A program made the translations under genes and the position numbers. Below, one piece after another: positions 11,900 through 64,000 of a stretch of 64,000 nucleotides of DNA. Source of the stretch: Haplodiscus bocki (taxonomy: Eukaryota). Position 1 is the first letter of the stretch. Each line of letters begins with the position of its first letter. The notes beneath the pieces were generated by a model. The model was not told the DNA's origin, did not search any database, and saw only the letters and a list, made by a program, of their open reading frames with translations. The stretch covers positions 148,800,001 to 148,864,000 of the forward strand of contig OZ296649.1 of NCBI GenBank assembly GCA_965655095.1, given 5' to 3'.

Positions 11900-11990
11900 A
11901 AAGTTAACTTTTAATTTATAAAAAAGTGTTAATTTATAAAAAGTTAACACTTTTAATTTATAAAAAAGTGTTTATTTATAAAAATTTACA
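11900..11990. repeat. Short AT-rich tandem repeats (ttaatttataaaaa(a)gt) inside the Merlin element
   Basis: About four imperfect copies of atttataaaa. Confidence 0.7.
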
Positions 11991-12179
11991 CCCCCTAATA
12001 AAGTTAACACCCCCCAAATCTGACCAACTTAAATATGCACCCCCATCCTGGTGTGGGGGGTTTAATCTTAACAATATCCAAAACAAGATTGCACATGGTT
12101 ATTTACATGAAGCGATTACTTGCATCCGTTTTTGATGATTCGGTATTTTTCCGGTATTTAAGGCTGATTTGATGCTAAC

Positions 12180-17640: not shown

Positions 17641-17811
17641 AATCTTTACGGGGGTCGTAGTTTCAAATACGTCCATGCAAATAGGAGGAGTCAAGGCAGT
17701 ATTGGGCTGAAGGTGAGTATGGAGATGTAAAAATCTTTAAGGGGGTCGTAGTTTCGAATGCGTCCATGCAAATAGGAGGAGTCAAGGTAGTATTGGGTGG
17801 AAGGTGAGTAG
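17641..17811. repeat. Diverged ~91-bp tandem duplication at the interrupted end of the post-env ORF
   Basis: aatcttta..ggggtcgtagtttc..cgtccatgcaaataggaggagtcaagg..tattggg..gaaggtgagta occurs at 17641 and 17732. Confidence 0.85.
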
Positions 17812-18809
17812 GGCGATGAGAATTTGTTATTTACAAAAATGTGATGTTTGTTGGTATTAAGGGCATGGTGAGGATAAAAGTAAACATATGAGTATTGGTG
17901 AAGTTTTTCATAAAAGAGGATTTGATCGAGGGAATTATAATTGTTAGTGACGTTCAAAAATTCTAGTATGTAAAAGTTGAATGTTTCAAAGCCAAAAACC
18001 ATACGGGTCAATGACTTCGTAGCACGCGAATATAATTGATCATCAGTGTAATCAAGGGCAGGGATTTGAAATTGGTAAGGTAATTCTTGCATGTACAGTT
18101 GAGTAATGGTAGGATTAAAAGCAATGGCATGCCGACATATTTGTGGGAAACTAGTATTACGGGTTTGATTAAGGGTGGTCAGTACTGAAAGGGAAGGAGG
18201 GTAGAGTCTTTCCAGTTCTTGATGCGAATTATATGGTGTAGTGAATTGGGGAGTGTTCCATGTGAGTGTTAGTCGTTGATTAATTGGTGTACGTATCGTG
18301 GTTAGGTGATTGTCAATGGTGGTCATAGATGGCGTGCTAGGAAAACTGGAGAAGAAGGAAGCAAGAAGGGGATTGGCTAGAGGAAGTGTGTAACTGTGCC
18401 GAATTAGTGCCGGATGTGTGTGTGTGGTTATAGAGGGTGCAATAACTGACTGTGGTTATTAGTGAGGCTTTATCGTGAGAATGTACTGAAGTGAGGTTAA
18501 AATTCGGGAGGTTCATTTGAATTGGAGTGGTTATGTGTTGTGTGGTGGCTGAATTGTTAGTAAGTATGACTGTTTGGGTTATTCGGATTGGGAGCGATGA
18601 TTAGTGTATGTGAGGTAGACTGCACTGGTTCGGCAAAGTTTGTTGAGATATTGGAGAGGGCGTTGAGCAACGAGAATTTGAAGAATCAGGTTGTGACGTT
18701 CGGAAATGGGAATTGTTTGGTTGTCAACTAAAGAGTCAAACTCAGGAAGGGAAAGTGGATCATGCTCATCTTGGATAGGGGTAGCTGGCATGTTGGTAAT
18801 GGCTTTCAT
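17691..18809 (-). pseudogene. Unknown accessory ORF downstream of env (fragments 18579-18809 and 17691-18326)
   Basis: 211-aa and 76-aa frames with the same orientation and composition as env. No recognisable domain. Confidence 0.55.
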
Positions 18810-19204: not shown

Positions 19205-21330
19205 TTATTGGGTGAGATTTGAATGTTTTGTTGACTTTCTGTTCTTGTTATCATTTCCATTTTTTGAATCTTTCGGGTTGTGATAGAAAAAAAGAAGTGT
19301 TCTTCTGAGTATTATTCCAGTAGTTGACACAAATAGGACAGCGAAAGAGCCTATCTTATTTCCAAACATTTTTTTAATTGGAGAGTAATAATTTACAATC
19401 GTTGTTACTGCAAAATGTAAATATTGATACGTTGCATAATGAAGGCCCCATTTAGTGAGAGTATAACATAGCCATCCAAATGTGTAAAGAAGCATATCCC
19501 TGAACCAATGACGTGTGCAACACGTATTTAAAGCGAGAATGAGATCCGTTGTTCCTATTCGTATTTGTCTTGTCCAAAAAGAATGAAAAGATTCTTGATC
19601 ATCTGAATTAATATCACTGCTCACGAAAGAAATCATAATTATTTGCTTTGCCTAAGTCTTGTATTGTTTCATCGGAGTGTTTTGTTGGTAAAATTGGGTC
19701 CCAGAAATCGTTATTATGTTTAGGTGAATATAAGACCGCGGTGTGAGCTGAAAATGTATAAGGTTGTATTGTAGTACGATTCTCAGATGGTTTAAAATGA
19801 GCTGGGCGGTCTCCTTTTGTAGGCGGTGGTGTTAGTAAATATTATTCATTACCATCAGGGACTAAAGCGATGATGTTAGCTGGATTACCATCATAAGGAA
19901 TTTCTCTATCAAAAAAATAGTTTTGTCGACTGATGGGATCTACATAATAGAGTGTATCTTGATAGAAAATTCGTATTTTGTCAATTTTTCTTTATAAGTG
20001 TCTAATAGTGAAAGATGATGTTCACATTCACAAACCCAAAGTGATGCACCTTCAATATGAACAAAGTTACTTCTGTTTCCAGTTACCAGGTGGCCAGCCA
20101 AATAGGGATTAGTTTGAGCAAGTGACAAGATTGTAAGGATTTGAGTGCGTTCTAGTTCACATAATTGCGTTAAGGTATTTATTTCGGCGGTATTCAGTAT
20201 TTTATAAATACAGTTCATAGTTTGATCAACTTTAGAATTAAAATAAGCTGGTATATCTAATGTCCCAAATCGTACACTTGTACTTAGATCTATGTATTGA
20301 GTAACATAGCCATCAGTTGCGGATTTAATTTTCTTGTTACGGACATCAACAGTGATTCAAGGAGATTCACTTTTAAAAATTTCAGTCAGAAGGTCGAGCA
20401 TTTTTCCTTTTTAGCGGGTAAGGACTCTGCCCAATAACATTTTTGTACTTTGCCCTTTTGGCTTCAAACTGATCAGAAAAAAAGATAAAACAATGGTCAA
20501 TTTGATCGACGTAGCAAAGTTGCCTGTGGTTTCGCAACATTCATCTTTATAAGTGCATAGTAAAGCACGTCGTCCGTTAAACACTAATTCATTTTGTTTA
20601 TTATCATGGCGAAGTTGCATTTTTGATTAACGAAATTTCCAACTAAAAAGATTCATATAAATTTAGTCACTTTTGAACAAAAGGAGTGTTTATTTGCAGC
20701 ACCGTCTGGAATCCATGATTTATAATGTGATTGAGGGCTGCAGACCCATACACCATGAGAATCTTGATCCAACGCTGTAGCTTGCATGGGACCTTGAATA
20801 CGAATGAGATTATTTTGTTGTCCTAAATCAGTTCAGAAAGCATTAGTTCGAAGAGATTCCATAGTTCGGTTAGATCGTGGACCGGAAAGTTCCATGAGAA
20901 AGCGGCCATTACTCTGACATCCATTCCTAGTAACAGCATGATACCTAACCATTGTGCTCGGATAGTAACTTTGTCGATAATGTTAATGGTTAGTCTTAGT
21001 ATTGTATACAAAAACTTCAGTTGTTTTTTTATATGAGAGGGAAAATTGGTAAGCTAAGACAATAGTTGCCTTAGCTCTGATGAACAAATCAACACGTGGT
21101 TTATTGTAGTCAACGTCACGTGGATTTGTACTACAATCATCAAGTCGATTAAGGTTAAACCGGCGTACGTTAAGGAGTTCGCGACAATGATCATGAATTG
21201 CCAATAAGTCGTTAATTTGATCTTCATTGACAGCGTGAGTTCGATCTTCAAGAGGTTCGTCGTTGAGGAGAGTGAGAATGTGACGGAACTGGAGAGCTAA
21301 GAAGAGCTGGAGTATGATATTCTTGAACAT
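19205..21330 (-). pseudogene. env: Envelope glycoprotein gene, chuvirus/Monjiviricetes-like class III fusion protein; disrupted by a stop and frameshifts
   Basis: Signal peptide MFKNIILQLFLALQF. N-terminal pattern HC..LNVRRFNLNRLDDC..LAYQ(C). Core LCELERTQILTILSLAQTNPYLAG..EGASLWVCEC..YYVDPISRQ. C-terminal hydrophobic segments at 19205-19636. About 700 codons in total. Confidence 0.75.
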
Positions 21331-24300
21331 GGATCATAAAAGGCAGCAGTTCCACGAGGAGTGCAAGTAGATGGATCAAAATTAAATTTTAGGCTTGAAC
21401 AAACGAGGCAGGTGAGGTTCTATGTTATATCTGGGCAGAGAAGTGGAATGGACCAATATATAATCTTTTAAAAGAAACGCGTATGGAGAACTGAATTTCT
21501 AAATTGGGTTTATAAAGGATGGCCATTTCCTTAGTCTTTTTTGCGGGACTAAGACTTAAAGAGCGATTTATAATAACAACGCCATCGGATTCAAGAGTGT
21601 TATCAAGATCAAATCCAGTAGGAAGAAAATTAAATGACTGTGCGTTTTGATGTGTATTTCAAAATTTCTGGAGAGAGGGAGGTAATTCAGGTGAGGAATT
21701 AAAACTGAAACCTTGAATGTGACGTTCGACACAAGGAGTCGTATCTAAAGAAGTATGCTCAAGATATGTGGGGCTAATTAAGTTTTGGATCGGACGTGGA
21801 GAAAGGTCAGTAGTTGACAGCAAGGCAAAATTTAAATTACGAGACGGGTTAGTATTGGGTGTAGAAGGTGATCGAGAGGTAAATGGTGTATTAGATTGGC
21901 GAGGAGAGGAATGATGGTAGCTTGTGAGTTTGTTAGTTGTGTCAAAAAATTTGTAGACATTACAGTTATAGTTCCTCTGATAGAAGAAAAAGTACGAAAA
22001 AGTTTAGTACTTGAGATGTTATTGAAATCATCGTCAGATAAGGTTATGGCATCATAAGAAAGGATTATGGTATCGTTAAATTGGTTTCCTGGGAGAATGT
22101 CGGGGAGTGGTCTATTTGGTAAAACATTTTGGTTATGATATGGTGAAGCAATTTTTGAAAAGATTAAAAAAACTATCTATGTGAGATGAAACGTGAGGAA
22201 GAGGTTTGCATTTCGTTGTTTGAAGGCAGAAAGATCAGAGGAGTTGAAAATTGGAGAGAGTGGCATCTACGAAAGTTAAAGATTCGGTTAACTATTTCGT
22301 ATTTTTTTACTAAAGTACCGATATGGAAAGTGTTCAAAAACTAGAGGGACCGCTTTTTTGAAGGAAATCTAGTAGCTTAGCAAAGAAGAAATGAACGATT
22401 GAAGAGATTCATCTTGATGATTTTGGCAATTTGCAACTAACTGTGAGAATCTTCAATTGTTGAGAAGCAGCAAGATAGATTTTTGCTGTTCGTCAAGTAT
22501 CAACAAGAGATATTTTGTTGTTAAATAGTAGCAAGAGAGCTTTTGTTGCTTTTAAGTACCAGCTGAATGAGTCGAAGATTAGCGAAGAATGAAGAGCAGA
22601 AATTATTCAGCTTAAATATTTTGCAGTGAAAATCTAATGATTGGTTGAGGACTTCGTACCATGGAATTTTGATGGCTAGCGAGTTTGACTTGGGAGGTGA
22701 TCTAAGGTTCTAGAAAGTTGTTTTGAATTCCGAAGCGTATATTGGTTATAAAATGCCGAAGATCGAGTTCAAAGAGTATCTATCGAAAACAACAATATTC
22801 GTACCGGTGCGATCCCAACGCTTGGTTAGTAACTCCGTCAAAAAACGATCTGATTGGTAGGCGAGTTTCAAAAGAGAGATAAATGTAGGTTCTAAGAAAC
22901 TAATTGGATTTTTGAATAGTTTATTAGTCTTTCAAAATGTCGGAGAACGAAGTCAAAACATCTAAAAAATGAAAGTTTATTTTGCTTTGATATGCGGTGT
23001 AGTTATGAACAGACAAAGAGATTATTTGAAAGGATAATAATTTTGAAAAACAGAGGCTGTCTAAACTGATTTGAGCTATTTTTATCCCGAGTGAAAATAA
23101 AATTTAGATGGAGGTATATGGGTGCTGTAGTCTTTGACAGGTTGTCGTCGAAGACGGCGGGTTGTTCGGAATTGAGAATATACGGAAGTTTGGTAAGATG
23201 TTGCGCCTAGTGGAGGCAAAGTTGGTGTTATGGTATCAGTTCGAATGGTATTTGCTTGATCATTCAGCGTAGTACGCTGTTGTTGAGAATTATCAAAGAT
23301 TAATGAAGACGAAGTGTCGTCATCAGGGGAATTTATCGAGGTTTGGTGCCTGTCAGTCAAAAAGAAATCTGGTGTAGTCTCGTTGCCAGAATCTTCTAGC
23401 GAATCGTAAAGTAATCGCTCGCGTGCATATAATTCGCCGGCTAGGTTAAACGAGGATATGGTTATATGTGGCTTAAAAGAAACCGTTTCATATTGTTGAA
23501 AAAGTTGTTCTAAATGGGGGACAACGGGATAAAATGGAATCAAATGGTTTCGGTGTGCGAACAAAACATTTCCTTGATGTGACAGTAACTGATATTTCAC
23601 ATTTTACTCGACGCATTGTATTTGTAGAACCGTCTGGAATCCATGATTTATAATGTGATTGAGGGCTGTAGACACATACACCATAAAAATCTTGATCCAG
23701 TGGGGTGGCTTGCATGGAACTTTGAATACGAATGAGATAATTTTGCTGTCCTAAATCAGTTAAGAAAACAATAGTTTGAGGAGATTCCATGGTTCGGTTA
23801 GATCGTGGACCGGAAAGTTCCAAGAGAAAGCTGACATGACTCTGACACCCATTCCTGGTAACAGCATGATACCTAACCATTGTGCTCGGAGAGTAACTTT
23901 GTCGATAATGTTAATGGTTAGTCTTAGTATTGTATACAAAAATTTCAGTTGTTTTTGTATATGAGAGGGAAAATTGGTAAGCTAAGACAGTAGTTGCCTT
24001 AGCTCTGATAAACAAATCAACACGTGGTTTATTGTAGGCAACGTCATGTGGATTTGTACTACAATCATCAAGTCGATTCAGGTTAAACCGGCGTACGTTA
24101 AGACGTTCTCGACAATATTAATGAATTGCCAAAAAGTCGTTAATTTGGTCTTGATTGACAGTGTGAGTTTGATCTTCAAGAGGTTCGTCGTTCAAGAGAG
24201 GAAACTGGAGAGCTAAGAAGAGCTGGAGTATGATAATCTTGAACATGGCTTATAAAAGGTAGCAGTTCCACGAGGAGTGCGAGTAGTTGGATCAAAATCA

Positions 24301-27300
24301 AATTTTAGGCTTGAACAAACAAACGAGGCAGGTGAGATTCTATATGTTATATCTGGGCAGAAAAGCGGAATGGGACGAACATATAATCTTTCAAAACAAA
24401 CGCGTATGGAGAACTGAATTTCTAAATTGGGTTTATAAAGGATGGCAATTTCCTTAGTCTTTTTTGCGGGACTAAGACTTCAAGAGCGATTTATATTAAC
24501 AATGCCATCGCATTCAAGAGTGTTATCAAGATAAAATCCAGTAGAAAGAAAATTAAAGGACTGTGCGTTTTGATGGGTAATTCAAAAGTTCTGGAGAGAG
24601 GGAGGTAATTCATGTGATGAATTTAAACTGAAGCATTGAATGTGACGTTCGACACAAGTAGTCGTATCCAAAGATGTATGCTCAAGAGATGTAGGGCTAA
24701 TTAAATTATGGATCGGACGTGGAGAAAGGTCAGTAGTTGACAGCAAGGCAATATTTAAAGTACGAGACGGGTTAATATTGGGTGTAGAAGGTGATCGAGA
24801 GAAAAATGGTGTATTAGATTGGCGAGGAGAGGAATGAAGGTAGCTTGTGAATTTGTTAGTTGTGTTACAAAATTTGTAGACATTACAACTATAGTTCCTC
24901 TGATAGAGGAAGAAGAACGAAAAAACTCAGTACTTCCAGTGTTATTGAAATCATCGTCAGATGAGGTTATGGCATCATAAGAAAAGATTATGGTATCGTT
25001 AAATTGGTTTCCTGGGAGAATGTCGGGGAGTGGTCTATTTGGTAAAACATTCTGGTTATGATATGGTGAAGCAATTTTTGAAAAGATTAAAAAAACTATC
25101 TATGTGAGATGAAACGTGAGGAAGAGGTTTGAATTTCGTTGTTTGAAGGCAGAAAGATCAGAGGAGTTGAAAATTGGAGAGAGTGGCATCTAAGAAAGTT
25201 AAAGATTCGGTTAACTATTTCGTATTTTTTACTAAAGTACCGATATGGAAAGTGTTCAAAAACTAGAGGGACCGCTTTTTTGAAGGAAATCTAGTAGCTT
25301 AGCAAAGAAGAAATGAACGATTGAAGAGATTCATCTTGATGATTTTGGCAATTTGCAACTAACTGTGAGAATCTTCAATTGTTGAGAAGCAGCGAGATAG
25401 ATTTTTGCTGTTCGTCAAGTATCAACAAGAGATATTTTGTTGTTAAATAGTAGCAAGAGAGCTTTTGTTGCTTTTAAGTACCAGCTGAATGAGTCGAAGA
25501 TTAGCGAAGAATGAAGAGCAGAAATTATTCAGCTTAAATATTTTGCAGTGAAAATCTAATGATTGAATGAGGACTTCGTACCATGGAATTTTGATGGCTA
25601 GCGAGTTTGACTTGGGAGGTGATCTAAGGTTCTAGAAAGTTGTTTTGAATTCCGAAGCGTATATTGGTTATAAAATGCCGAAGATCGAGTTCAAAGAGTA
25701 TCTATCGAAAACAACAATATTCGTACCGGTGCGATCCCAACGCTTGGTTAGTAACTCCGTCAAAAAACGATCTGATTGGTAGGCGAGTTTCAAAAGAGAG
25801 ATAAATGTAGGTTCTAAGAAACTAATTGGATTTTTGAATAGTTTATTAGTCTTTCAAAATGTCGGAGAACGAAGTCAAAACATCTAAAAAATTAAAAGTT
25901 TATGTTGTTTTGATATGCGGTGTAGTTATGAACAGACAAAAGGATTATTTGAAAGGATAATAATTTTGAAAAACAGAGGCTGTCTAAACTGATTTGAGCT
26001 ATTTTTATCCCGAGTGAAAATAAAATTTAGATGGAGGTATATGGGTGCTGTAGTCTTTGACAGGTTGTCGTCGAAGACGGCGGGTTGTTCGGAATTGAGA
26101 ATATACGGAAGTTTGGTAAGATGTTGCGCCTAGTGGAGGCGCTGTTGGTGTTATGGTATCAGTTCGAATGGTATTTGCTTGATCATTCAGCGTAGTACGC
26201 TGTTGTTGAGAATTATCAAAGATTAATGAAGACGAAGTGTCGTCATCAGGGGAATTTATCGAGGTTTGGTGCCTGTCAGTCAAAAAGAAATCTGGTGTAG
26301 TCTCGTTGCCAGAATCTTCTAGCGAATCGTAAAGTAATCGCTCGCGTGCATATAATTCGCCGGCCGGGTTAAACGAGGATATGGTTATATGTGGCTGAAA
26401 AGAAACCGTTTTATATAGTTTTTCTAAATGGGGGACAACGGGATAAAATGGGATCAAATGGTTTCCGTGTGCGAACAAAACATTTCCTTGATGTGACAGT
26501 AACTGATATTTCACATTTTACGCGACGCATTGTATTTGTAGAACCGTCTGAAACCCATGATTTATATTGTGATTAAGGGCTGTAGACACATACACCATAA
26601 AAATCTTGATCCAATGGGGTGGCTTGCATGGAACTTTGAATACGAATAAGATAAATTCGCTGTCCTAAATCAGTTAAGAAAACAATAGTTTGAGGAGATT
26701 CCATGGTTCGGTTAGATCGTGGACCGGAAAGTTCCAAGAGAAAGCTGACATGACTCTGACACCCATTCCTGGTAACAGCATGATACCTAACCATTGTGCT
26801 CGGAGAGTAACTTTGTCGATAATGTTAATGGTTAGTCTTAGTATTGTATACAAAAATTTCAGTTGTTTTTGTATATGAGAGGGAAAATTGGTAAGCTAAG
26901 ACAGTAGTTGCCTTAGCTCTGATAAACAAATCAACACGTGGTTTATTGTAGGCAACGTCATGTGGATTTGTACTACAATCATCAAGTCGATTCAGGTTAA
27001 ACCGGCGTACGTTAAGACGTTCTCGACAATATTAATGAATTGCCAAAAAGTCGTTAATTTGGTCTTGATTGACAGTGTGAGTTTGATCTTCAAGAGGTTC
27101 GTCGTTCAAGAGAGGAAACTGGAGAGCTAAGAAGAGCTGGAGTATGATAATCTTGAACATGGCTTATAAAAGGTAGCAGTTCCACGAGGAGTGCGAGTAG
27201 TTGGATCAAAATCAAATTTTAGGCTTGAACAAACAAACGAGGCAGGTGAGATTCTATATGTTATATCTGGGCAGAAAAGTGGAATGGGACGAACATATAA

Positions 27301-30300
27301 TCTTTCAAAACAAACGCGTATGGAGAACTGAATTTCTAAATTGGGTTTATAAAGGATGGCAATTTCCTTAGTCTTTTTTGCGGGACTAAGACTTCAAGAG
27401 CGATTTATATTAACAATGCCATCGCATTCAAGAGTGTTATCAAGATAAAATCCAGTAGAAAGAAAATTAAAGGACTGTGCGTTTTGATGGGTAATTCAAA
27501 AGTTCTGGAGAGAGGGAGGTAATTCATGTGATGAATTTAAACTGAAGCATTGAATGTGACGTTCGACACAAGTAGTCGTATCCAAAGATGTATGCTCAAG
27601 AGATGTAGGGCTAATTAAATTATGGATCGGACGTGGAGAAAGGTCAGTAGTTGACAGCAAGGCAATATTTAAAGTACGAGACGGGTTAATATTGGGTGTA
27701 GAAGGTGATCGAGAGAAAAATGGTGTATTAGATTGGCGAGGAGAGGAATGAAGGTAGCTTGTGAATTTGTTAGTTGTGTTACAAAATTTGTAGACATTAC
27801 AACTATAGTTCCTCTGATAGAGGAAAAAGAACGAAAAAACTCAGTACTTCCAGTGTTATTGAAATCATCGTCAGATGAGGTTATGGCATCATAAGAAAAG
27901 ATTATGGTATCGTTAAATTGGTTTCCTGGGAGAATGTCGGGGAGTGGTCTATTTGGTAAAACATTCTGGTTATGATATGGTGAAGCAATTTTTGAAAAGA
28001 TTAAAAAAACTATCTATGTGAGATGAAACGTGAGGAAGAGGTTTGAATTTCGTTGTTTGAAGGCAGAAAGATCAGAGGAGTTGAAAATTGGAGAGAGTGG
28101 CATCTACGAAAGTTAAAGATTCGGTTAACTATTTCGTATTTTTTACTAAAGTACCGATATGGAAAGTGTTCAAAAACTAGAGGGACCGCTTTTTTGAAGG
28201 AAATCTAGTAGCTTAGCAAAGAAGAAATGAACGATTGAAGAGATTCATCTTGATGATTTTGGCAATTTGCAACTAACTGTGAGAATCTTCAATTGTTGAG
28301 AAGCAGCGAGATAGATTTTTGCTGTTCGTCAAGTATCAACAAGAGATATTTTGTTGTTAAATAGTAGCAAGAGAGCTTTTGTTGCTTTTAAGTACCAGCT
28401 GAATGAGTCGAAGATTAGCGAAGAATGAAGAGCAGAAATTATTCAGCTTAAATATTTTGCAGTGAAAATCTAATGATTGAATGAGGACTTCGTACCATGG
28501 AATTTTGATGGCTAGCGAGTTTGACTTGGGAGGTGATCTAAGGTTCTAGAAAGTTGTTTTGAATTCCGAAGCGTATATTGGTTATAAAATGCCGAAGATC
28601 GAGTTCAAAGAGTATCTATCGAAAACAACAATATTCGTACCGGTGCGATCCCAACGCTTGGTTAGTAACTCCGTCAAAAAACGATCTGATTGGTAGGCGA
28701 GTTTCAAAAGAGAGATAAATGTAGGTTCTAAGAAACTAATTGGATTTTTGAATAGTTTATTAGTCTTTCAAAATGTCGGAGAACGAAGTCAAAACATCTA
28801 AAAAATTAAAAGTTTATGTTGTTTTGATATGCGGTGTAGTTATGAACAGACAAAAGGATTATTTGAAAGGATAATAATTTTGAAAAACAGAGGCTGTCTA
28901 AACTGATTTGAGCTATTTTTATCCCGAGTGAAAATAAAATTTAGATGGAGGTATATGGGTGCTGTAGTCTTTGACAGGTTGTCGTCGAAGACGGCGGGTT
29001 GTTCGGAATTGAGAATATACGGAAGTTTGGTAAGATGTTGCGCCTAGTGGAGGCGCTGTTGGTGTTATGGTATCAGTTCGAATGGTATTTGCTTGATCAT
29101 TCAGCGTAGTACGCTGTTGTTGAGAATTATCAAAGATTAATGAAGACGAAGTGTCGTCATCAGGGGAATTTATCGAGGTTTGGTGCCTGTCAGTCAAAAA
29201 GAAATCTGGTGTAGTCTCGTTGCCAGAATCTTCTAGCGAATCGTAAAGTAATCGCTCGCGTGCATATAATTCGCCGGCCGGGTTAAACGAGGATATGGTT
29301 ATATGTGGCTGAAAAGAAACCGTTTTATATAGTTTTTCTAAATGGGGGACAACGGGATAAAATGGGATCAAATGGTTTCCGTGTGCGAACAAAACATTTC
29401 CTTGATGTGACAGTAACTGATATTTCACATTTTACGCGACGCATTGTATTTGTAGAACCGTCTGAAACCCATGATTTATATTGTGATTAAGGGCTGTAGA
29501 CACATACACCATAAAAATCTTGATCCAATGGGGTGGCTTGCATGGAACTTTGAATACGAATAAGATAAATTCGCTGTCCTAAATCAGTTAAGAAAACAAT
29601 AGTTTGAGGAGATTCCATGGTTCGGTTAGATCGTGGACCGGAAAGTTCCAAGAGAAAGCTGACATGACTCTGACAGCGATTCCTAGTAACAGCATGATAC
29701 CTAACCATTGTGCTCGAATAGTAACTTTGTCGATATTGTTAATGGTTAGTCTTAGTATTGTATACAAAAATTTCAGTTGTTTTTGTATATGAGAGGGAAA
29801 ATTGGTAAGCTAAGACAAAAGTTGCCTTAGCTCTGATGAACAAATCAACACGTGGTTTATTGTAGGCAACGTCATGTTGATTTGTACTACAATCATCAAG
29901 TCGATTAAGGTTAAACCGGCGTACGTTAAGACGTTCTCGACAATAATAATGAATTGCCAAAAAGTCGTTAATTGGTCTTGATTGACAGTGTGAGTTTGAT
30001 CTTCAAGAGGTTCGTCGTTCAGGAGAGGAAACTGGAGAGCTAAGAAGAGCTGGAGTATGATAATCTTGAACATGGATTATAAAAGGTAGCAGTTCCACGA
30101 GGAGTGCAAGTAGTTGGATCAAAATCAAATTTTAGGCTTGAACAAACAAACGAGGCAGGTGAGATTCTATATGTTATATCTGGGCAGAAAAGTGGAAAGG
30201 GACGAACATATAATCTTTTAAAACAAACGCGTATGGAGAACTGAATTTCTAAATTGGGTTTGTAAAGGATGGCAATTTCCTTAGTCTTTTTTGCGGGACT

Positions 30301-33300
30301 AAGACTTAAAGAGCGATTTATAATAACAATGCCATCGGATTCAAGAGTGTTATCAAGATAAAATCCAGTAGAAAGAAAATTAAAGGACTGTGCGTTTTGA
30401 TGGGTATTTCAAAAGTTCTGGAGAGAGGGAGGTAATTCATGTGATGTATTTAAACTGAAGCATTGAATGTGACGTTCGACACAAGTAGTCGTATCCAAAG
30501 ATGTATGCTCAAGAGATGCAGGGCTAATTAAATTATGGATCGGACGTGGAGAAAGGTCAGTAGTTGACAGCAAGGCAATATTTAAAGTACGAGACGGGTT
30601 AATATTGGGTGTAGAAGGTGATCGAGAGAAAAATGGTGTATTAGATTGGCGAGGAGAGGAATGAAGGTAGCTTGTGAATTTGTTAGTTGTGTTACAAAAT
30701 TTGTAGACATTACAACTATAGTTCCTCTGATAGAGGAAAAAGAACGAAAAAACTCAGTACTTCCAGTGTTATTGAAATCATCGTCAGATAAGGTTATGGC
30801 ATCATAAGAAAGGATTATGGTATCGTTAAATTGGTTTCTTGGGAGAATGTCGGGGAGTGGTCTATTTGGTAAAACATTTTGGTTATGATATGGTGAAGCA
30901 ATTTTTGAAAAGATTAAAAAAGCTATCTATGTGAGATGAAACGTGAGGAAGAGGTTTGAACTTCGTTGTTTGAAGGCAGAAAGATCAGAGGAGTTGAAAA
31001 TTGGAGAGAGTGGTATCTATGAAATTTAAAGATTCGGTTAACTATTTCGTATTTTTTGGTAAAGTACCGATATGGAAAGTGTTCAAAAAATAGAGGGACC
31101 GCTTTTTTGAAGGATATCTAGTAGCTTAGCAAAGAAGAAATGAACGATTGAAGAGATTCATATGGATGATTTTGTCAATTTGCAACTAACTGTGAGAATC
31201 TTCAATTGTTAAGAAGCAGCAAGATAAATTTTTGCTGTTCGTCAAGTATCAACAAAAGATATTTTGTGGTTTGTTAAATAGTAGCAAGAGAGCTTTTGTT
31301 GATTTTAAGTACCAGCTGAATGAGTCGAAGATTAGCGAAGAATGAAGAGCAGAAATTATTCAGCTTAAATTATTTGCAGTGAAAATCTAATGATTGGTTG
31401 AGGATTTCGTACCATGGAATTTTGATGGCTAGCGAGTTTGACTTGGCAGGTGATCTAAGGTTCCAGAAAGTTGTTTTGATTCCCGAAGCGTATATTGGTT
31501 ATAAAATGCCGAAGATCGAGTTCAAAGACTATCTATCGAAATCAACAAAATTCGTTCCGGTGCAATCCCAATTCTCGGTTGGTAACTCCGTCAAAAAACG
31601 ATCTGATTGATAGGCGAGTTTCAAAAGAGAGATAAATGTAGGTTCTAAGAAACTAATTGGATTTTTGAATAGTTTATTAGTCTTTCAAAATGTCGGAAAA
31701 CGAAGTCAAAACATCTACAAAATTAAAAGTTTATGTTGTTTTGATATGCGGTGTAGTTATGAACAGACAAAGGGATTATTTGGAAGGATAATAATTTTGA
31801 AAAACAGAGGCTGCCTAAACTGATTTGAGCTATTTTTATCCCGAGTGAAAATAATATTTAGATGGAGGTATATGGGTGCTGTAGTCTTTGACAGGTTGTC
31901 GTCGAAGATAGCGGGTTGTTCGGAACTGAGAATATACGGAAGTTTGGTAAGATGTTGCGCCTAGTGGAGGCGCTGTTGGTGTTATGGTGTCAGTTTGAAT
32001 GGTATTTGCTTGATCATTCAGCGTAGTAGGCGGTTGTTGAGAATTATCAAAGATTAATGGAGACGAAGTGTCGTCATCAGGGGAATTTATCGAGGTTTGG
32101 TGCCTGTCAGTCGAAAAGAAATCTGGTGTAGTCTCGTTGCCAGAATCTTCTAGCGAACCGTAAGGTAATCGCTCGGGTGCATATAATTCACCGGCCGGGT
32201 TAAACGAGGATATGGTTATATGTGGCTGAAAAGAAACCGTTTTATATTGTTGGAGAAGTTTTTCTAAATGGGGGACAACGGGATAAAATGGGATCAAATG
32301 GTTTCCGTGTGCGAACAAAACATTTCCCTGATGTGACAGTAACTGATATTTCACATTTTACTCGACGCATTGTATTGGTAGAACCGTCTGGAATCCATGA
32401 TTTTTATTGTGATTGAGGGCTGTAGACACATACACCATAAAAATCTTGATCCAATGGGGTGGCTTGCATGGAACTTTGAATACGAATGAGATAATTTCGC
32501 TGTCCTAAATCAATTTAGAAAACAATAGTCTGAGGAGATTCCATGGTTCGGTTAGATCGTGGACCGGAAAGTTCCAAGAGAAAGCTGACATGACTCTGAC
32601 AGCCATTCCTAGTAACAGCATGATACCTAACCATTGTGCTCGGATAGTAACTTTGTCGATCATGTTAATGGTTAGTCTTAGTATTGTATACAAAAAATTC
32701 AGTTGTTTTTGTATATGAGAGGGAAAATTGGTAAGCCAAGACAGTAGTTGCCTTAGCTCTGATAAACAAATCAACACGTGGTTTATTGTAGGCAACGTCA
32801 TGTGGATTTGTACTACAATCATCAAGTCGATTCAGGTTAAACCGGCGGACGTTAGGACGTTCTCTACAAGAATAATGAATTGCGAATATGTCGTTAATTT
32901 GGTCTTGATTGACAGTGTGAGTTTGATTTTCAAGAGGTTCGTCGTTCAGGAGAGGAAACTGGAGAGCTAAGAAGAGCTGGAGTATGATAATCTAGAACAT
33001 GGAGTATAAAAGGTAGCAGTTCCACGAGGAGTGCAAGTAGTTGAATCGAAATTAAATTTTAGGCTTGAACAAACAAACGAGGCAGGTGAGGTTCTTTATG
33101 TTAAATCTGGGCAGAAAAGTGGAAAGGGACGAACATATAATCTTTTAAAACAAACGCGTATGGAGAACTGAATTTCTAAATTGGGTTTGTAAAGGATGGC
33201 AATTTCCTTAGTCTTTTTTGCGGGACTAAGACTTAAAGAGCGATTTATAATAACAATGCCATCGGATTCAAGAGTGTTATCAAGATAAAATCCAGTAGAA

Positions 33301-36300
33301 AGAAAATTAAAGGACTGTGCGTTTTGATGGGTATTTCAAAAGTTCTGGAGAGAGGGAGGTAATTCATGTGATGAATTTAAACTGAAGCATTGAATGTGAC
33401 GTTCGACACAAGTAGTCGTATCCAAAGATGTATGCTCAAGAGATGTAGGGCTAATTGAATTATGGATTGGACGAGGACAAAGGTCAGTAGTTGAAAAAAA
33501 TCCAATATTTAAATTACGAGACGGGTTAGTATTGGGTGTAGAAGGTGAACGAGAGGTAAGTGGTGTATTAGATTGGCGAGGAGAAGAATGAAGGTAGCTT
33601 GTGAGTTTGTTAGTTGTGTTAAAAAATTTGTAGACATTACAACTATAGTTCCTCTTATAGAGGAAAAAGTACGAAAAAACTAAGTACTTCCAGTGTTATT
33701 GAAATCATCGTGAGATAAGGTTATGGCATCATAAGAAAGGATTATGGTATCGTTAAATTCGTTCCCTGGGAGAATATCGGGGAGTGGTCCACTTGGTAAA
33801 ATATTCTGGTTATAATATGGTGAAGCAATTTTTGAAAAGATTAAAAAAACTACCTATGTGAGAAGAAACGTTAAGAAGAGGTTTGAATTTCGTTGCTTGA
33901 AGGCTGAAAGATCACAGGAGTTGAAAATTGCAGAGAGTGGTATCTATGAAATTTAAAGAGTCGGTTGACTATTTTGTACTTTTCAGTAAAATACCGATAT
34001 GGAAAGTGTTCAAAAAATAGAGAGACCGGTTACTTGAACGAAATCTAGTAACTTAGCAAAGAAGAAATGAACGGTTGAGGATATGCATCTTGATGCTTTT
34101 GTTAATTTTCAAATAACTGTGAGATAGAATCTTTAAATGTTAAGAAGCAGGAAGAGAATTTTTTGTTGTTCGTCAAGTATCAACAAGAGATTTTTTGTTG
34201 TTTGTTAAATAGCAGCAAGAGAGCTTTTGTTGATTTCAAGTACCAGCTGTATGAGTTGAAGATTAGCGATGAATGAAGAGAAGAAATTACTCAGCTAAAC
34301 TATTTTGCAGTAGAAAATCTAATGATTGATTGATGACTTCGTATCATGGAATTTTGTTGGCTAGCAGCGAGTTTGATTTGGGAGGTAACATAACGTTCTA
34401 GAAAGTTGTTTTGAATTCCGGAGCGTATATCGGTTAATAAATGTCGAGGATCGAGTTCAAAGAGTATCTATCGAAATCAACAATATTCGTACCGGTGCAA
34501 TCCCAACGCTCGGTTGGTAACTCCTTCAAAAAACGGTCTGACTGGTAGGCGAGTTTCATAACAGAGATAAATGTAGGTTCTAAAAAACTGTTTGGAATTT
34601 TGAATAGTTTATTAGTCTTTCAGAACGTCGGAGAACGAAGTCAAAACATCTACAAAAATGAAAGTTTATTTTGCTTTGATATGCGGTGTAGTTATGAACA
34701 GACAAAGGGATTATTTGGAAAGATAACAATTTTGAAAAGGAGAGGCTGTCTAAACTGATTTGAGCTATTTTTATCCCGAGTAAAAATAATATTTAGATGG
34801 AGGTACATGGGTGCGGTAGTCTTTGACAGGTTGTCGACGAAGACGACGGGTTGTTCGGGATTGAGAATATACGGAAGTTTGGGAAGATGTTGCGCCTAGT
34901 GGAGGCGCTGTTGGAGTTTTGGTATCAGTTTGATTGGTATTTTTCTTGACCATTCAGCGTAGTAGGCTGTTGTTGAGAAATATCAAAGATTATTGGAGAC
35001 GAAGTGTCGTCATCAGGGGAATTTATCGAGGTTTGGTGCCTGTCAGTCAAAAAGAAATCTGATGTAGTCTCGTTGCCAGAATCTTCTAGCGAGTCGTAAG
35101 GTAATCGCTCGGGTGCATATATTTCGCCGGCTGGGTTAAACGAGGATATGGTTATATGTGGCTTAAAAAAAACCGTTTTATTTTGTTGAGAAAGTTTTTC
35201 TAAATGGGGGACAACGGGATAAAATGGGATCAAATGGTTTCGGTGTTTGAACAAAACATTTCCTTGATGTGACAGTAACTGATATTTCACATTTTACTCG
35301 ACGCATTGTATTTGTAGAACCGTCTGGAATCCATGATTTATATTGTGATTGAGCACTGTAGACCCATACACCATAAGAATCTTGATCCAATGGGGTGGCT
35401 TGCATGGAAATTTGAATAAGAATGAGATAATTTCGCTGTCCTAAATCAGTTTAGAAAACAATAGTTTGAGGAGATTCCATGGTTCGGTTAGACCGTGGAC
35501 CGGAAAGTTCCCAGAGAAAGCTGACATGACTCTGACAGCCATTCCTAGTAACAGCATGATACCTAACCATTGTGCTCGGATAGTAACTTTGTCGATCATG
35601 TTATTGGTTAGTCTTAGTATTGTAGACATAAATTTTAGTTGTTTTTGTATATGAGAGGGAACATTGGTAAGCTAAGACAGTAGTTGCCTTAGCTCTGATA
35701 AACAAATCAACACGTGGTTTACTGTAGGCAACGTCATGTGGATTTGTACTACATTCGTCAAGTCGATTAAGGTTAAACCGGCGTACGTTAAGACGTTCTC
35801 GACAATAATAATGAATTGCCAATATGTTGTTAATTTGGTCTTGATTGACAGTGTGAGTTTGATCTTCAAGAGGTTCGTCGTTCAGGAGAGGAAACTGGAG
35901 ATCTAAGAAGAGCTGGAGTATGATAATCTTGAACATGGATTATAAAAGGTAGCAGTTCCACGAGGAGTGCAAGTAGTTGGATCAAAATCAAATTTTAGGC
36001 TTGAACAAACAAACGAAGCAGGTGAGATTCTATATGTTATATCTGGGCAGAAAAGTGGAATGGGACGAACATATAATCTTCCAAAACAAACGCGTATGGA
36101 GAACTGAATTTCTAAATTGGGTTTACAACGGATGGCAAATTCCTTAGTCTTTTTTGTGGGACTAAGACTTAAAGAGCGATTTATAATAACAATGCCATCG
36201 GATTCAAGAGTGTTATCAAGATAAAATCCAGTAGAAAGAAAATTAAAGGACTGTGCGTTTTGATGGGTATTTCAAAAGTTCTGGAGAGAGGGAGGTAATT

Positions 36301-39300
36301 CATGTGATGAGTTTAAACTGAAGCATTGAATGTGACGTTCGACACAAGTAGTCGTATCCAAAGATGTATGCTCAAGAGATGTAGGGCTAATTAATTTATG
36401 GATCGGACGTGGAGAAAGGTCAGTAGTTGACAGCAAGGCAATATTTAAAGTACGAGACGGGTTAATATTGGGTGTAGAAGGTGATCGAGAGAAAAATGGT
36501 GTATTAGATTGGCGAGGAGAGGAATGAAGGTAGCTTGTGAATTTGTTAGTTGTGTTACAAAAATTGTAGACATTACAGCTATGGTTCCTCTGATAGAGGA
36601 AAAAGAACGAAAAAACTCAGTACTTCCAGTGTTATTGAAATCATCGTCAGATAAGGTAATGGCATCATAAGAAAGGATTATGGTATCGTTAAATTGGTTT
36701 CCTGGGAGAATGTCGGGGAGTGGTCTATTTGGTAAAACCTTTTTGGTTATGATATGGTGAAGCAATTTTTGAAAAGATTAAAAAAACTATCTATGTGAGA
36801 TGAAACGTGAGGAAGAGGTTTGAATTTCGTTGTTTGAAGGCAGAAAGATCAGAGGAGTTGAAAATTGGAGAGAGTGGTATCTATGAAATTTAAAGATTCG
36901 GTTAACTATTTCGTATTTTTTGGTAAAGTGCCGATATGGAAAGTGTTCAAAAAATAGAGGGACCGCTTTTTGGAAGGAAATCTACTAGCTTAGCAAAGAA
37001 GAAATGAACGATTGAAGAGATTCATCTGGATGATTTTGTCAATTTGCAACTAACTGTGAGAATCTTCAATTGTTAAGAAGCAGCAAGCTAAATTTCTGCT
37101 GTTCGTCAAGTATCAACAAGAGATATTTTGTGGTTTGTTAAATAGTAGCAAGAGAGCTTTTGTTGATTTTAAGTACCAGCTGAATGAGTCGAAGATTAGC
37201 GAAGAATGAAGAGCAGAAATTATTCAGCTTAAATAATTTGCAGTGAAAATCTAATGATTGGTTGAGGATTTCGTACCATGGAATTTTGTTGGCTAGCGAG
37301 TTTGACTTGGGAGGTGATCTAAGGTTCTAGAAAGTTGTTTTGATTCCCGAAGCGTATATTGGTTATAAAATGCCGAAGATAGAGTTCAAAGACTATCTAT
37401 CGAAATCAACAAAATTCGTTCCGGTGCAATCCCAATTCTCGGTTGGTAACTCCGCCAAAGAACGATCTGATTGGTAGGTGACTTTCAAAAGAGACATAAA
37501 TGTAGGTTCTAAGAAACTAATTGGATTTTTGAATAGTTTATTAGACTTTCAAAATTTCGGAGAACGAAGTCAAAACATCTACAAAATTAAAAGTTTATGT
37601 TGTTTTGACATGCGGTGTAGTTATGAACAGACAGAGGGATTATTTGGAAGGATAATAATTTTGAAAAACAGAGGCTGTCTAAACTGATTTGAGCTATTTT
37701 TATCCCGAGTGAAATTAATATTTGGATGGAGGTATAGGGGTGCTGTATTCTTTGATAGGTTGTCGTCAAAGACGGTGGGTTGTTCGGAATTGAGAATGTA
37801 CGGAAGTTTGGTAAGACGTTGCGCCTAGTGGAGGCGCTAATGGTGTTATGGTATCAGTTTGAATTGTATTTGCTGGATCATTCAGCGTAGTAGGCGATTG
37901 TTTAGAATTATCAAAGATTAATGGAGACGAAGTGTCGTCATCAGAGGAATTTATCGAGGTTTGGTGCCTGTCAGTCGAAAAGAAATCTGGTGTAGTCTCG
38001 TTGCCAGAATTTTTTAGCGAATCATAAGGTAATCGCTCGGGTGCATGTAAATCACCGACCGGGTTAAACGAGGATAGGGTTATATGTGGCTGAAAAGAAA
38101 CCGTTTTATTTTGTTGAAAAAGTTTTTCTAAATGGGGGACAACGGGATAAAATGGAATCAAATGGTTTCGGTGTGCGAACAAAACATTTCCTTGATGTGA
38201 CAGTAACTGATATTTCACATTTTACTCGACGCATTTTATTTGTAGAACCGTCTGGAATCCATGATTTATATTGTGATTGAGGGCTGTAGACACATACACC
38301 ATAAAAATCTTGATCCAGTGGGGTGGCTTGCATGGAACTTTGAATACGAATGAGATAATTTTGCGGTCCTAAATCAGTTAAGAAAACAATAGTTTGAGGA
38401 GATTCCATGGTTCGGATAGATCGTGGACCGGAAAGTTCCAAGAGAAAGCTAACATGACTCTGACAGCCATTCTTAGTAACATCATGATACCTCACCAGTG
38501 TGCTCGGATAGTAACTTTGTCGATCATGTTATTGGTTAGTCTCAGTATTGTAGACATAAATTTTAGTTGTTTTTGTATATGAGAGGGAAAAGTGGTAAGC
38601 TGAGACAGTAGTTGCCTTAGCTCTGATAAACAAATCAACACGTGGTTTATTGTGGGCAACGTCATGTGAATTTGTACTACAATCATCAAGTCGATTAAGG
38701 TTAAACCGGCATACGTTAAGACGTTCTCGACAATAATAATGAATTGCCAAAAAGTCGTTAATTTGGTCTTGATTGACAGTGTGAGTTTGATCTTCAAGAG
38801 GTTCGTCGTTCAGGAGAGGAAACTGGAGAGCTAAGAAGAGCTGGAGTATGATAATCTTGAACATGGATTATAAAAGGTAGCAGTTCCACGAGGAGTGCAA
38901 GTAGTTGGATCAAAATCAAATTTTAGGCTTGAACAAACAAACGAGGCAGGTGAGATTCTATATGTTATATCTGGGCAGAAAAGTGGAATGGGACGAACAT
39001 ATAATCTTTCAAAACAAACGCGTATGGAGAACTGAATTTCTAAAATGGGTTTACAAAGGATGGCCATTTCCTTAGTCTTTTTTGCGGGACTAAGAATTAA
39101 AGAGCGATTTATAATAACAATGCCATCGGATTCAAGAGTGTTATCAAGATAAAATCCAGTAGTAAGAAAATTAAAGGACTGTGCGTTTTGATGGGTATTT
39201 CAAAAGTTCTGGAGAGAGGGAGGTAATTCATGTGATGAATTTAAACTGAAGCATTGAATGTGACGTTCGACACAAGTAGTCGTATCCAAAGATGTATGCT

Positions 39301-42300
39301 CAAGAGATGTAGGGCTAATTAAATTATGCATCGGACGTGGATAAAGGTCAGTAGTTGACAGCAAGGCAATATTTAAAGTACGAGACGGGTTAATATTGGG
39401 TGTAGAAGGTGATCGAGAGAAAAATGGTGTATTAGATTGGCGAGGAGAGGAATGAAGGTAGCTTGTGAATTTGTTAGTTGTGTTACAAAATTTGTAGACA
39501 TTACAACTATAGTTCCTCTGATAGAGGAAAAAGAACGAAAAAACTCAGTACTTCCAGTGTTATTGAAATCATCGTCAGATAAGGTTATGGCATCATAAGA
39601 AAGGATTATGGTATCGTTAAATTGGTTTCCTGGGAGAATGTCGGGGAGTGGTCTATTTGGTAAAACATTTTGGTTATGATATGGTGAAGCAATTTTTGAA
39701 AAGATTAAAAAAACTATCTACGTGAGATGAAACGTGAGGAAGAGGTTTGAATTTCGTTGTTTGAAGGCAGAAAGATCAGAGGAGTTGAAAATTGGAGAGA
39801 GTGGTATCAATGAAATTTAAAGATTCGGTCAACTATTTCGTATTTTTTAGTAAAGTACCGATATGGAAAGTGTTCAAAAAATAGAGGGACCGCTTTTTTG
39901 AAGGAAATCTAGTAGCTTAGCAAAGAAGAAATGAACGATTGAAGAGATTCATCTGGATGATTTTGTCAATTTGCAACTAACTGTGAGAATCTTCAATTGT
40001 TAAGAAGCAGCAAGATAAATTTTTGCTGTTCGTCAAGTATCAACAAGAGATATTTTGTGGTTTGTTAAATAGTAGCAAGAGAGCTTTTGTTGATTTTAAG
40101 TACCAGCTGAATGAGTCGAAGATTAGCGAAGAATGAAGAGCAGAAATTATTCAGCTTAAATTATTTGCAGTGAAAATCTAATGATTGGTTGAGGATTTCG
40201 TACCATGGAATTTTGATGGCTAGCGAGTTTGACTTGGGAGGTGATCTAAGGTTCTAGAAAGTTGTTTTGATTCCCGAAGCGTATATTGGTTATAAAATGC
40301 CGAAGATCGAGTTCAAAGACTATCTATCGAAATCAACAAAATTCGTTCCGGTGCAATCCCAATTCTCGGTTGGTAACTCCGTCAAAAAACGATCTGATTG
40401 ATAGGCGAGTTTCAAAAGAGAGATAAATGTAGGTTCTAAGAAACTAATTGGATTTTTGAATAGTTTATTAGTCTTTCAAAATGTCGGAAAACGAAGTCAA
40501 AACATCTACAAAATTAAAAGTTTATGTTGTTTTGATATGCGGTGTAGTTATGAACAGACAAAGGGATTATTTGGAAGGATAATAATTTTGAAAAACAGAG
40601 GCTGCCTAAACTGATTTGAGCTATTTTTATCCCGAGTGCAAACAATATTTAGATGGAGGTATATGGGTGCTGTAGTCTTTGACAGGTTGTCGTCGAAGAC
40701 AGCGGGTTGTTCGGAATTGAGAATATACGGAAGTTTGGTAAGATGTTGCGCCTAGTGGAAGCGCTGTTGGTCTTATGGTGTCAGTTTGAATGGTATTTGC
40801 TTGATAATTCAGCGTAGTAGGCGGTTGTTGAGAATTATCAAAGATTAATGGAGACGAAGTGTCGTCATCAGAGGAATTTATCGAGGTTTGGTGCCTGTCA
40901 GTCGAAAAGAAATCTGGTGTAGTCTCGTTGCCAGAATTTTCTAGCGAATCGTAAGGTAATCGCTCGGGTGCATATAATTCACCGGCCGGGTTAAACGAGG
41001 ATATGGTTATATGTGGCTGAAAAGAAACCGTTTTATATTGTTGAAAAAGTTTTTCTAAATGGGGGACAACGGGATAAAATGGGATCAAATGGTTTCCGTG
41101 TGCGAACAAAACATTTCCTTGATGTGACAGTAACTGATATTTCACATTTTACCCGACATATTGTATTTGTAGAACCGTCTGGAATCCATGATTTATATTG
41201 TGATTGAGGGCTGTAGACCCATACACCATAAAAATCTTGATCCAATGGGGTGGCTTGCATGGAACTTTGAATACGAATAAGATAAATTCGCTGTCCTAAA
41301 TCAGTTAAGAAAACAATAGTTTGAGGAGATTCCATGGTTCGGTTAGATCATGGACCGGAAAGTTCCAAGAGAAAGCTGACATGACTCTGACAGCGATTCC
41401 TAGTAACAGCATGATACCTAACCATTGTGCTCGGATAGTAACTTTGTCGATCATGTTAATGGTTAGTCTTAGTATTGTATACAAAAACTTCAGTTGTTTT
41501 TGTATATGAGACAGAAAAGTGGTAAGCTCAGACAGTAGTTGCCTTAGCTCTGATAAACGAATCAACACGTGGTTTATTGTGGGCAACGTCATGTGGATTT
41601 GTACTACAATCATCAAGTCGATTAAGGTTAAACCGGCGTACGTTAAGACGTTCTCGACAATAATAATGAATTGCCAAAAAGTCGTTAATTTGGTCTTGAT
41701 TGACAGTGTGAGTTTGATCTTCAAGAGGTTCGTCGTTCAGGAGAGGAAACTGGAGAGCTAAGAAGAGCTGGAGTATGATAATCTTGAACATGGATTATAA
41801 AAGGTAGCAGTTCCACGAGGAGTGCAAGTAGTTGGATCAAAATCAAATTTTAGGCTTGAACAAACAAACGAGGCAGGTGAGATTCTATATGTTATATCTG
41901 GGCAGAAAAGTGGAATGGGACGAACATATAATCTTTCAAAACAAACGCGTATGGAGAACTGAATTTCTAAAATGGGTTTACAAAGGATGGCCATTTCCTT
42001 AGTCTTTTTTGCGGGACTAAGAATTAAAGAGCGATTTATAATAACAATGCCATCGGATTCAAGAGTGTTATCAAGATAAAATCCAGTAGTAAGAAAATTA
42101 AAGGACTGTGCGTTTTGATGGGTATTTCAAAAGTTCTGGAGAGAGGGAGGTAATTCATGTGATGAATTTAAACTGAAGCATTGAATGTGACGTTCGACAC
42201 AAGTAGTCGTATCCAAAGATGTATGCTCAAGAGATGTAGGGCTAATTAAATTATGCATCGGACGTGGATAAAGGTCAGTAGTTGACAGCAAGGCAATATT

Positions 42301-63300: not shown

Positions 63301-64000
63301 AAAAAATAGAGAGACCGGTTACTTGAACGAAATCTAGTAAGTTAGCAAAGAAGAAATGAACGTTTGAAGAGATGCATCTTGATGAGTTTGTTAATTTTCA
63401 TATAACTGTGAGATAGAATCTTTAAATGTTAAGAAGCAGGAAGAGATATTTTTGTTGTTCGTCAAGTATCAACAAGAGATATTTTGTTGTTTGTTAAATA
63501 GCAGCAAGAGAGCTTCTGTTAATTGTCAAGTAGAAGCAAGAGAGCTTTTGTTGATTTCATGTACCAGCTGAATGAGTCGAAGATAAGCGATGAATGAAGA
63601 GAACAAAGTATTCAGCTAAACTATTTTGCAGTGGAAAATCTAATGATTGGTTGAGGACTTCGTATCATGGAAATTTGTTGGATAGCAGCGAGTTTGACTT
63701 GGGAGGTAACATAACGTTCTAGAAAGTTGTTTTGATTTGCGAAGCGTATATCGGTTATTAAATGTCGAGGATCGAGTTCAAAGAGTATCTATCGAAATCA
63801 ACAATATTCGTACCGGTGCAATCCCAACGCTCGGTTGGTAACTCCGTTGAAAAACGATCTGATTGGTAGGCGAGTTTCATAACAGAGATAAATGTAGGTT
63901 CTAAGAAACTGTTTGGATTTTCGAATAGTTTATTAGTCTTTCAAAATGTCGGAGAACGAAGTCAAAACATCTACAAAACTGAAAGTTTAACTTGTTTTGA
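20701..64000 (-). repeat. Macrosatellite of ~2.93-kb units, 14 complete + 1 partial, head-to-tail
   Basis: The junction gtaga|accgtc recurs at 23628, 26542, 29456, 32382, 35318, 38246, 41173, 44100, 47027, 49954, 52880, 55811, 58738 and 61672 (periods 2914-2936). Confidence 0.98.
23082..23600 (-). pseudogene. pol: C-terminal tail of a Ty3/Gypsy-type pol (integrase post-GPY/F region), repeated in every array unit
   Basis: VKYQLL..GNVLFAHRNHLIPFYP resembles the Y-x-L...H-x-N-x-L-x-P integrase C-terminal motif. It is followed by a disordered tail ending RRLRRQPVKDY. Copies at 26005, 28919, 31836, 34771, ~37700, 40627, 43554, 46481, 49408, ~52335, 55265, 58192 and 61127. Confidence 0.65.

What the first reader, a model, noticed from the sequence alone, without database searches (positions are those of the whole stretch)
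19205..21330. Chuvirus/Monjiviricetes-type class III glycoprotein used as env by a Gypsy-like element
Seen: signal peptide, Cys pattern, the CELER..L..LSLA..P...G......G...W..C core and C-terminal TM segments. Known: chuvirus-like glycoproteins are described as captured env genes in arthropod BEL/Pao elements, whereas errantiviruses use baculovirus F-type env. Inference: an independent env capture by an element whose pol tail looks Ty3/Gypsy-like, which would be a possibly undescribed invertebrate retrovirus lineage.
Basis: partly seen in the sequence, partly recalled or inferred. Interest (0 to 1): 0.8.

Follow-up and report, generated by a model that had tools for sequence, protein, structure and literature searches.

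The report
Dead gB-type retroelement envelope gene
This is a broken envelope (membrane-fusion) gene of a virus-like jumping gene in an animal genome; jumping genes of this kind are already described, and part of this dead copy has since been multiplied into a long run of repeats.

Summary
The gene is real. Minus strand 21330-19205 holds a pseudogene for a class III (chuvirus G / herpesvirus gB type) fusion glycoprotein. It matches Pfam Monjiviricetes_fusion weakly (E 6e-6), and an intact natural relative folds like herpesvirus gB and chuvirus G. It has in-frame stops, three frame changes and a lost internal block. Upstream lie a pol-tail-like ORF and a 1.75-kb spacer; downstream lies a conserved ORF of unknown family. 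RT and integrase core are outside the window, so Ty3/Gypsy membership is indirect: a sister env family is joined to a Ty3-like RT-RNase H. The novelty claim fails. Chuvirus-like gB-type env beside Ty3/gypsy pol is published across many animal phyla (PMC13524379), and nothing here shows an independent capture. All 15 copies share one env stop, so the gene was dead before amplification. Verdict: a new, decayed member of a known kind; modest interest in the extra ORF and the array.

The parts
19205..21330 (-). env pseudogene, class III (gB/chuvirus G type) fusion glycoprotein; four frame segments, six in-frame stops, one internal block missing
   Evidence: fold of natural relative P0005
19985..20305 (-). 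best-kept core of env (central helix region with the CELER motif)
   Evidence: PF24664 E 6.4e-6; family profile E 2e-40; 75% identity to P0001, 49% to P0005
23082..23618 (-). 3' tail of pol: end of a GPY/F-like integrase module followed by a low-complexity tail (label inferred, motif recalled)
   Evidence: 27 relatives among 28 hits; upstream extensions in P0064 and P0066; no Pfam or PDB hit
21331..23081 (-). 1.75-kb spacer between pol stop and env start, with short open frames of 114-122 codons; coding status unresolved
   Evidence: no Pfam or PHROG hit for 3 pieces tested; first 200 nt conserved in a relative (P0063)
20691..64000 (-). tandem array of a 2,914-2,936-bp unit (pol tail + spacer + first 640 nt of env); 14 whole units and a 15th cut by the window end; 90.5-99.6% pairwise identity
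17691..18455 (-). conserved ORF downstream of env (254 codons stop to stop), family unknown; also found behind env in relatives P0026 and P0055
   Evidence: 31% over 149 aa to P0055, E 2e-13 in a local search; no Pfam, PHROG or Atlas hit; model unusable, pLDDT 32
17641..17818 (.). 91-bp tandem duplication at the 3' end of the downstream ORF; homology to relatives ends near 17636

Best explanation
This is the 3' half of a decayed env-bearing Ty3/Gypsy LTR retroelement (a gB-type 'errantivirus' in the operational sense of PMC13524379), with the order pol - spacer - env - extra ORF. In the live element the env product would be a signal-peptide-led, membrane-anchored, trimeric class III fusogen that lets Gag/Pol particles enter other cells, probably germ cells from neighbouring soma. 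The fold is shown for a relative; trimer, fusion and the cell route are inferred from gB/G biology and from Drosophila errantiviruses. This copy died first. A 2.93-kb internal stretch was then duplicated head to tail by an illegitimate recombination event and expanded by unequal exchange or gene conversion into an array of 43 kb or more that now drifts like satellite DNA. The array and the shared stop are shown; the recombination mechanism is inferred.
For: Class III fold: AlphaFold model of natural relative P0005 (mean pLDDT 63). All 37 listed PDB rows are herpesvirus gB, best E 8.8e-10. Best viral-model hits are chu-like and xinmo-like glycoproteins, E 2e-28. Atlas top clusters are PF24664, score 0.94. 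56 of 58 long relatives carry PF24664. Gypsy link: P0061 joins RVT_1, RT_RNaseH and RT_RNaseH_2 domains, nearest solved structure Ty3 RT at E 9e-26, to an env piece 93% identical to P0023. The P0023 group falls in one clade with the window's closest relatives (support 0.947) and shares the downstream ORF (P0026, P0055). Dead before amplification: 15 of 15 copies have a stop at the position of 20985, and no copy reads more than 115 env codons. pN/pS is 1.17 for the pol tail and 0.70 for the env 5' part. Near-identical pairs U02/U03, U10/U12 and U08/U09 show recent local exchange. Precedent for retrotransposon-derived tandem repeats: PMC3648361 (abstract).
Against: No RT, RNase H, integrase core, gag or LTR is in the window; no direct repeat resembling an LTR pair was found in 1-21000. 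The RT link rests on one chimeric-looking protein of a sister family whose env is only about 42-45% identical in the core. The pol tail matched no integrase profile (0 of 16 relatives scanned). TM-scores to gB are low (0.14-0.25 by query length; pTM 0.42), so the domain arrangement is not confirmed. A sequence-profile search of the PDB found no fusion protein. pN/pS pairs are not independent and were not tested for significance; spacer frames ranged 0.45-1.49.
Confidence: 0.82

Rival explanations
1. The carrier is a BEL/Pao element like Anakin, with a chuvirus-like env behind its integrase.
For: GPY/F modules also occur in BEL/Pao integrases (PMC2774666). Chuvirus-like env in mosquito BEL/Pao elements is published (PMC7642597, search listing; passages).
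Against: The only RT tied to this env clade has Ty3-type RT and RNase H matches and no BEL/Pao-specific Pfam hit. No tail relative hit a BEL/Pao C-terminal profile at E up to 0.5 (0 of 16).
Confidence: 0.06
2. It is an independent, recent capture of an RNA-virus glycoprotein by a Gypsy lineage.
For: Structurally closer to chu-like virus G (E 2e-28) than to herpesvirus gB (E 1.5e-13 in the same library). Five-letter family motifs were absent from the published domain I-II sequences (4 motifs, 0 hits), and no RT tree was run.
Against: Only 9-15% identity to any listed viral protein, against 27-47% among the long cellular-type relatives, which form a deep family. PMC13524379 argues for ancient association across phyla. 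Exact motif searches are a very weak test.
Confidence: 0.1
3. It is a non-retroviral endogenous viral element (a chuvirus-like G gene) that merely landed next to retroelement debris.
For: Jingchuvirales glycoprotein EVEs are often flanked by fragmentary Gypsy sequence without proven capture (PMC10084718, passages). The 1.75-kb gap to pol is long.
Against: Relatives are high-copy (clusters of 424-4,561 members), as expected of mobile elements. The downstream ORF is linked to env in relatives. All parts share one strand and one base skew from 18000 onward. No viral N or L gene was seen.
Confidence: 0.04
4. The array is functional, for example a host piRNA source or a secreted env fragment that interferes with live relatives.
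For: At least 15 copies are kept; 14 of 15 retain an open signal-peptide start and 7 of 15 read 111-115 codons; env 5' pN/pS is 0.70.
Against: Eight of 15 copies stop earlier (2-87 codons); pN/pS is near 1 overall; no expression data.
Confidence: 0.1

Closest known systems
HSV/gB-type env 'errantiviruses' of Ty3/gypsy (Chary and Hayashi, PMC13524379)
   Same: gB-type env with signal peptide and C-terminal anchor, placed after pol; chuvirus-like; Ty3-like RT in the sister family
   Different: This copy is broken; pol-env gap is 1.75 kb (their first filter allowed up to 1 kb outside insects); a conserved ORF follows env, and 'accessory' has 0 occurrences in their main text; placement in their clades not tested
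Anakin, mosquito BEL/Pao elements with chuvirus glycoprotein (PMC7642597, search listing only)
   Same: same broad glycoprotein family used as env
   Different: carrier here appears Ty3/Gypsy; no close viral donor
Chuviridae / Xinmoviridae glycoproteins (Pfam PF24664) and herpesvirus gB
   Same: class III fold, profile match
   Different: 9-15% identity; retroelement context; relatives carry long Pro/Ser-rich cytoplasmic tails
Retrotransposon-derived tandem repeats such as maize CRM1TR/CRM4TR (PMC3648361, abstract)
   Same: head-to-tail array made from part of a Ty3/gypsy element, locally homogenised
   Different: unit here is an internal pol-env stretch, not LTR plus UTR

Membership tests
Class III fusion glycoproteins (PF24664 / gB-like) | profile match to the family | tested here: met
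   window core E 6.4e-6 but under the cut-off; close relatives 55.8-85.5 bits and full-length relatives 44-130 bits, above 27
Class III fusion glycoproteins (PF24664 / gB-like) | gB-like fold | tested here: met
   on natural relative P0005, not on the broken window gene; low global TM-scores
Class III fusion glycoproteins (PF24664 / gB-like) | signal peptide, conserved Cys, C-terminal membrane anchor | tested here: inconclusive
   signal peptide kept; 6 of 10 aligned Cys kept; one hydrophobic segment kept and one decayed
Class III fusion glycoproteins (PF24664 / gB-like) | trimer and membrane-fusion activity | not tested
   no complex job sent; activity needs bench work
Ty3/Gypsy env-bearing elements (errantiviruses, operational sense) | RT/RNase H/integrase classed as Ty3/Gypsy | tested here: inconclusive
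   absent from the window; met only for the sister family through P0061
Ty3/Gypsy env-bearing elements (errantiviruses, operational sense) | env ORF downstream of pol on the same strand | tested here: met
   pol-like tail 23618-23082, env 21330-19205; the pol label rests on a recalled motif
Ty3/Gypsy env-bearing elements (errantiviruses, operational sense) | paired LTRs, primer-binding site, gag | not testable with these tools
   5' half lies beyond 64000; no LTR recognised downstream
Ty3/Gypsy env-bearing elements (errantiviruses, operational sense) | intact ORFs (active element) | tested here: not met
   stops, frame changes and a lost block
BEL/Pao (Anakin-like) | BEL/Pao-type pol domains | tested here: inconclusive
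   no BEL/Pao profile hit in tail relatives or P0061, but the window's own RT is missing

The most novel reading that the evidence does not exclude
The element belongs to a large, high-copy clade of gB-type Ty3/Gypsy elements with a complex-retrovirus-like layout (a conserved unknown ORF after env and possibly another in the 1.75-kb pol-env spacer), in a host lineage or with a spacing that the published survey did not cover. The extra ORF would be a new accessory protein, for instance a regulator or counter-defence factor.
Probability: 0.35. Interest if true: 0.5.

Novelty: new member of a known kind. Interest (0 to 1): 0.25.

Why it matters
What could matter is the conserved ORF behind env, which has no known family, and the clear order of events (gene death, then 15-fold or greater tandem amplification), a clean case of satellite-like DNA arising from the inside of an env-bearing retroelement.

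Tried and rejected
Whole-frame Pfam scans were too diluted: 0 relevant hits in 9 frames. Word-index search with the pol tail found nothing among 310 candidates; the full HMMER search found 28, of which P0089 is a bacterial cadherin-repeat false hit. I first read the 21600-21400 stretch as a GPY/F motif and dropped that, because the tail relatives map only to 23603-22895. PDB sequence searches with the env profile, tail profile and P0066 gave nothing useful. The bacterial-genome scan gave 1 confirmed locus of 18 stretches, a 704-bp contig (L001) without context. The downstream ORF could not be folded (3 sequences, pLDDT 32), so no fold search was run; Atlas gave no usable hit. ARAGORN and Rfam found no RNA gene. 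Motif searches in the PMC13524379 supplements gave 0 hits, but the listed sequences cover only domains I-II, so one search is uninformative. The treekit run failed at display and was replaced by FastTree on 56 relatives, with P0002 as proxy for the window; P0004, P0026, P0055, P0056, P0061 and P0062 were not in that tree. Names and accessions of the relatives could not be looked up, so the host lineage stays unknown. A recalled hunch that such families abound in acoels is untested; four acoel or Xenoturbella genus names are absent from the survey's genome table. Viral and metagenome contig collections were not searched. Assembly artefact was rejected for the array because copies differ by 0.4-9.5% in a patterned way.

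Full report
Observation. The open core frame hits Pfam PF24664 Monjiviricetes_fusion at E 6.4e-6, just under the curated cut-off. A search with it returned 4 proteins among 208 candidates at 55-67% identity, 3 with PF24664. A profile of these returned 58 long relatives among 6,805 candidates, 56 with PF24664. The relatives align colinearly from start codon to C-terminus. Four of five segments score far above 200 shuffles and one is marginal.

State of the gene. It is a pseudogene, with stops at 20985, 20835, 20629, 20413, 20359 and 19844 and frame changes near 20700-20655, 20000-19990 and 19630-19610. The family block at P0005 residues 280-375 is unrecognisable in any frame and the region is about 50 codons short. 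Six of 10 aligned cysteines survive, and one of two membrane-proximal hydrophobic segments has decayed.

Fold. I folded the intact natural relative P0005 with 56 sequences (mean pLDDT 63, pTM 0.42, disordered tail). All 37 listed PDB matches are herpesvirus gB (best E 8.8e-10; 86 matches at E up to 0.001). The best predicted viral structures are chu-like, xinmo-like and qin-like glycoproteins (best E 2e-28), at 9-15% identity across the list. Atlas agrees. Global TM-scores are low, and a sequence-profile search of the PDB found nothing, so the assignment is to the fold class, not to a donor virus.

Context. Upstream of env lie a 1.75-kb spacer and a 173-codon ORF ending at 23082. That ORF has 27 genuine relatives among 28 hits. 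Two of them extend upstream into what I recognise from memory as a GPY/F integrase C-terminal module. No Pfam or PDB entry confirms this (0 of 16 relatives scanned), and GPY/F modules occur in BEL/Pao integrases too (PMC2774666, passages). So the tail does not classify the element. The indirect evidence does point to Ty3/Gypsy. P0061 joins an RT and Ty3-type RNase H to an env piece 93% identical to P0023. The P0023 group forms a clade with the window's nearest relatives (FastTree support 0.947; 56 rows, 221 columns). The same group carries, behind env, a homologue of the window's downstream ORF at 18455-17691 (31% over 149 aa). That ORF matches nothing in Pfam, PHROGs or Atlas and could not be folded. 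No LTR was recognised downstream.

The array. From 20691 to the window end the sequence is a head-to-tail array of a 2,914-2,936-bp unit made of pol tail, spacer and the first 640 nt of env. There are 14 whole units and one cut unit, 90.5-99.6% identical. Only the last unit runs on into the rest of env. All 15 copies have a stop at the position of 20985, none reads more than 115 env codons, and pN/pS is 1.17 (pol tail) and 0.70 (env 5'), on non-independent pairs and untested for significance. Pairs such as U02/U03 and U10/U12 are over 99% identical. The simplest history is insertion, decay, one internal duplication, then expansion by unequal exchange or conversion. The first steps are read from the shared stop; the mechanism is inferred, with precedent in maize CRM-derived repeats (PMC3648361, abstract). 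The rest of pol should lie beyond 64000.

How it works. In a live relative the protein most likely acts as a trimeric class III fusogen on enveloped retroelement particles, allowing cell-to-cell entry. This is inferred from the fold and from Drosophila errantiviruses; PMC13524379 itself notes that the transmission mechanism is unknown for most elements. This copy can make no such protein.

Comparison with what is known. PMC13524379 (seen: abstract, sections 5 part 1, 6, 7 and 14, passages, parts of supplements 2 and 6) reports 1,512 env-bearing Ty3/gypsy elements across animal phyla, with gB-type env as widespread as F-type. It states that the chuvirus-like glycoprotein of mosquito BEL/Pao elements also lies next to gypsy pol genes. 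PMC10084718 (passages) had seen Gypsy fragments beside such glycoproteins without proving capture. PMC7642597 was seen as a search listing only. Whether this family sits inside a published clade was not tested; figure-only alignments and the authors' external files could bear on it. No search or 62 turned up a conserved ORF behind gB-type env, but these were not exhaustive.

Verdict. Observation confirmed; interpretation partly supported; a decayed new member of a known kind. Interest 0.25. The boldest reading still open is a complex-layout clade with a new accessory protein (probability 0.35, interest 0.5). Host taxon unknown.

Noticed in passing
window 1940-2159 (-) and 12099-12606 (-): Host exons: an SH3 domain (Pfam E 1.4e-9) and a DPF-motif-rich open frame with no Pfam hit; together they suggest an Eps15/intersectin-type endocytic gene (label recalled).
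   Followed up: partly
window 2780-7242: Two blocks duplicated at 99.8-99.9% identity (2780-3685 = 4374-5279; 3680-4378 = 6544-7242), a very recent duplication or an assembly artefact.
   Followed up: no
window 11165-12082: 918-bp element with 29-nt terminal inverted repeats (93%) and internal short repeats, MITE-like.
   Followed up: no
window 17425-17480 (-): tRNA 3'-half-like sequence just past the element's last homology, possibly a SINE head; ARAGORN and Rfam found nothing.
   Followed up: partly
window 14000-14920 (-): Stretch with the same strong base skew as the element and several 100-codon frames; no Pfam hit for 2 pieces. Possibly another retroelement fragment.
   Followed up: partly
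window 15000-16900 and 100-1220: Degenerate dispersed repeat family, 62-92% identity.
   Followed up: no
window 18582-18809 (-): 76-codon ATG-led frame between env and the downstream ORF; no Pfam or PHROG hit.
   Followed up: partly
L001 215-685: A relative of this env sits on a 704-bp contig in a bacterial genome bin, most likely host DNA carried into the bin.
   Followed up: no
proteins P0026, P0055, P0061, P0062: Chimeric-looking deletion derivatives of one high-copy family, joining env pieces to RT or to the downstream ORF.
   Followed up: partly
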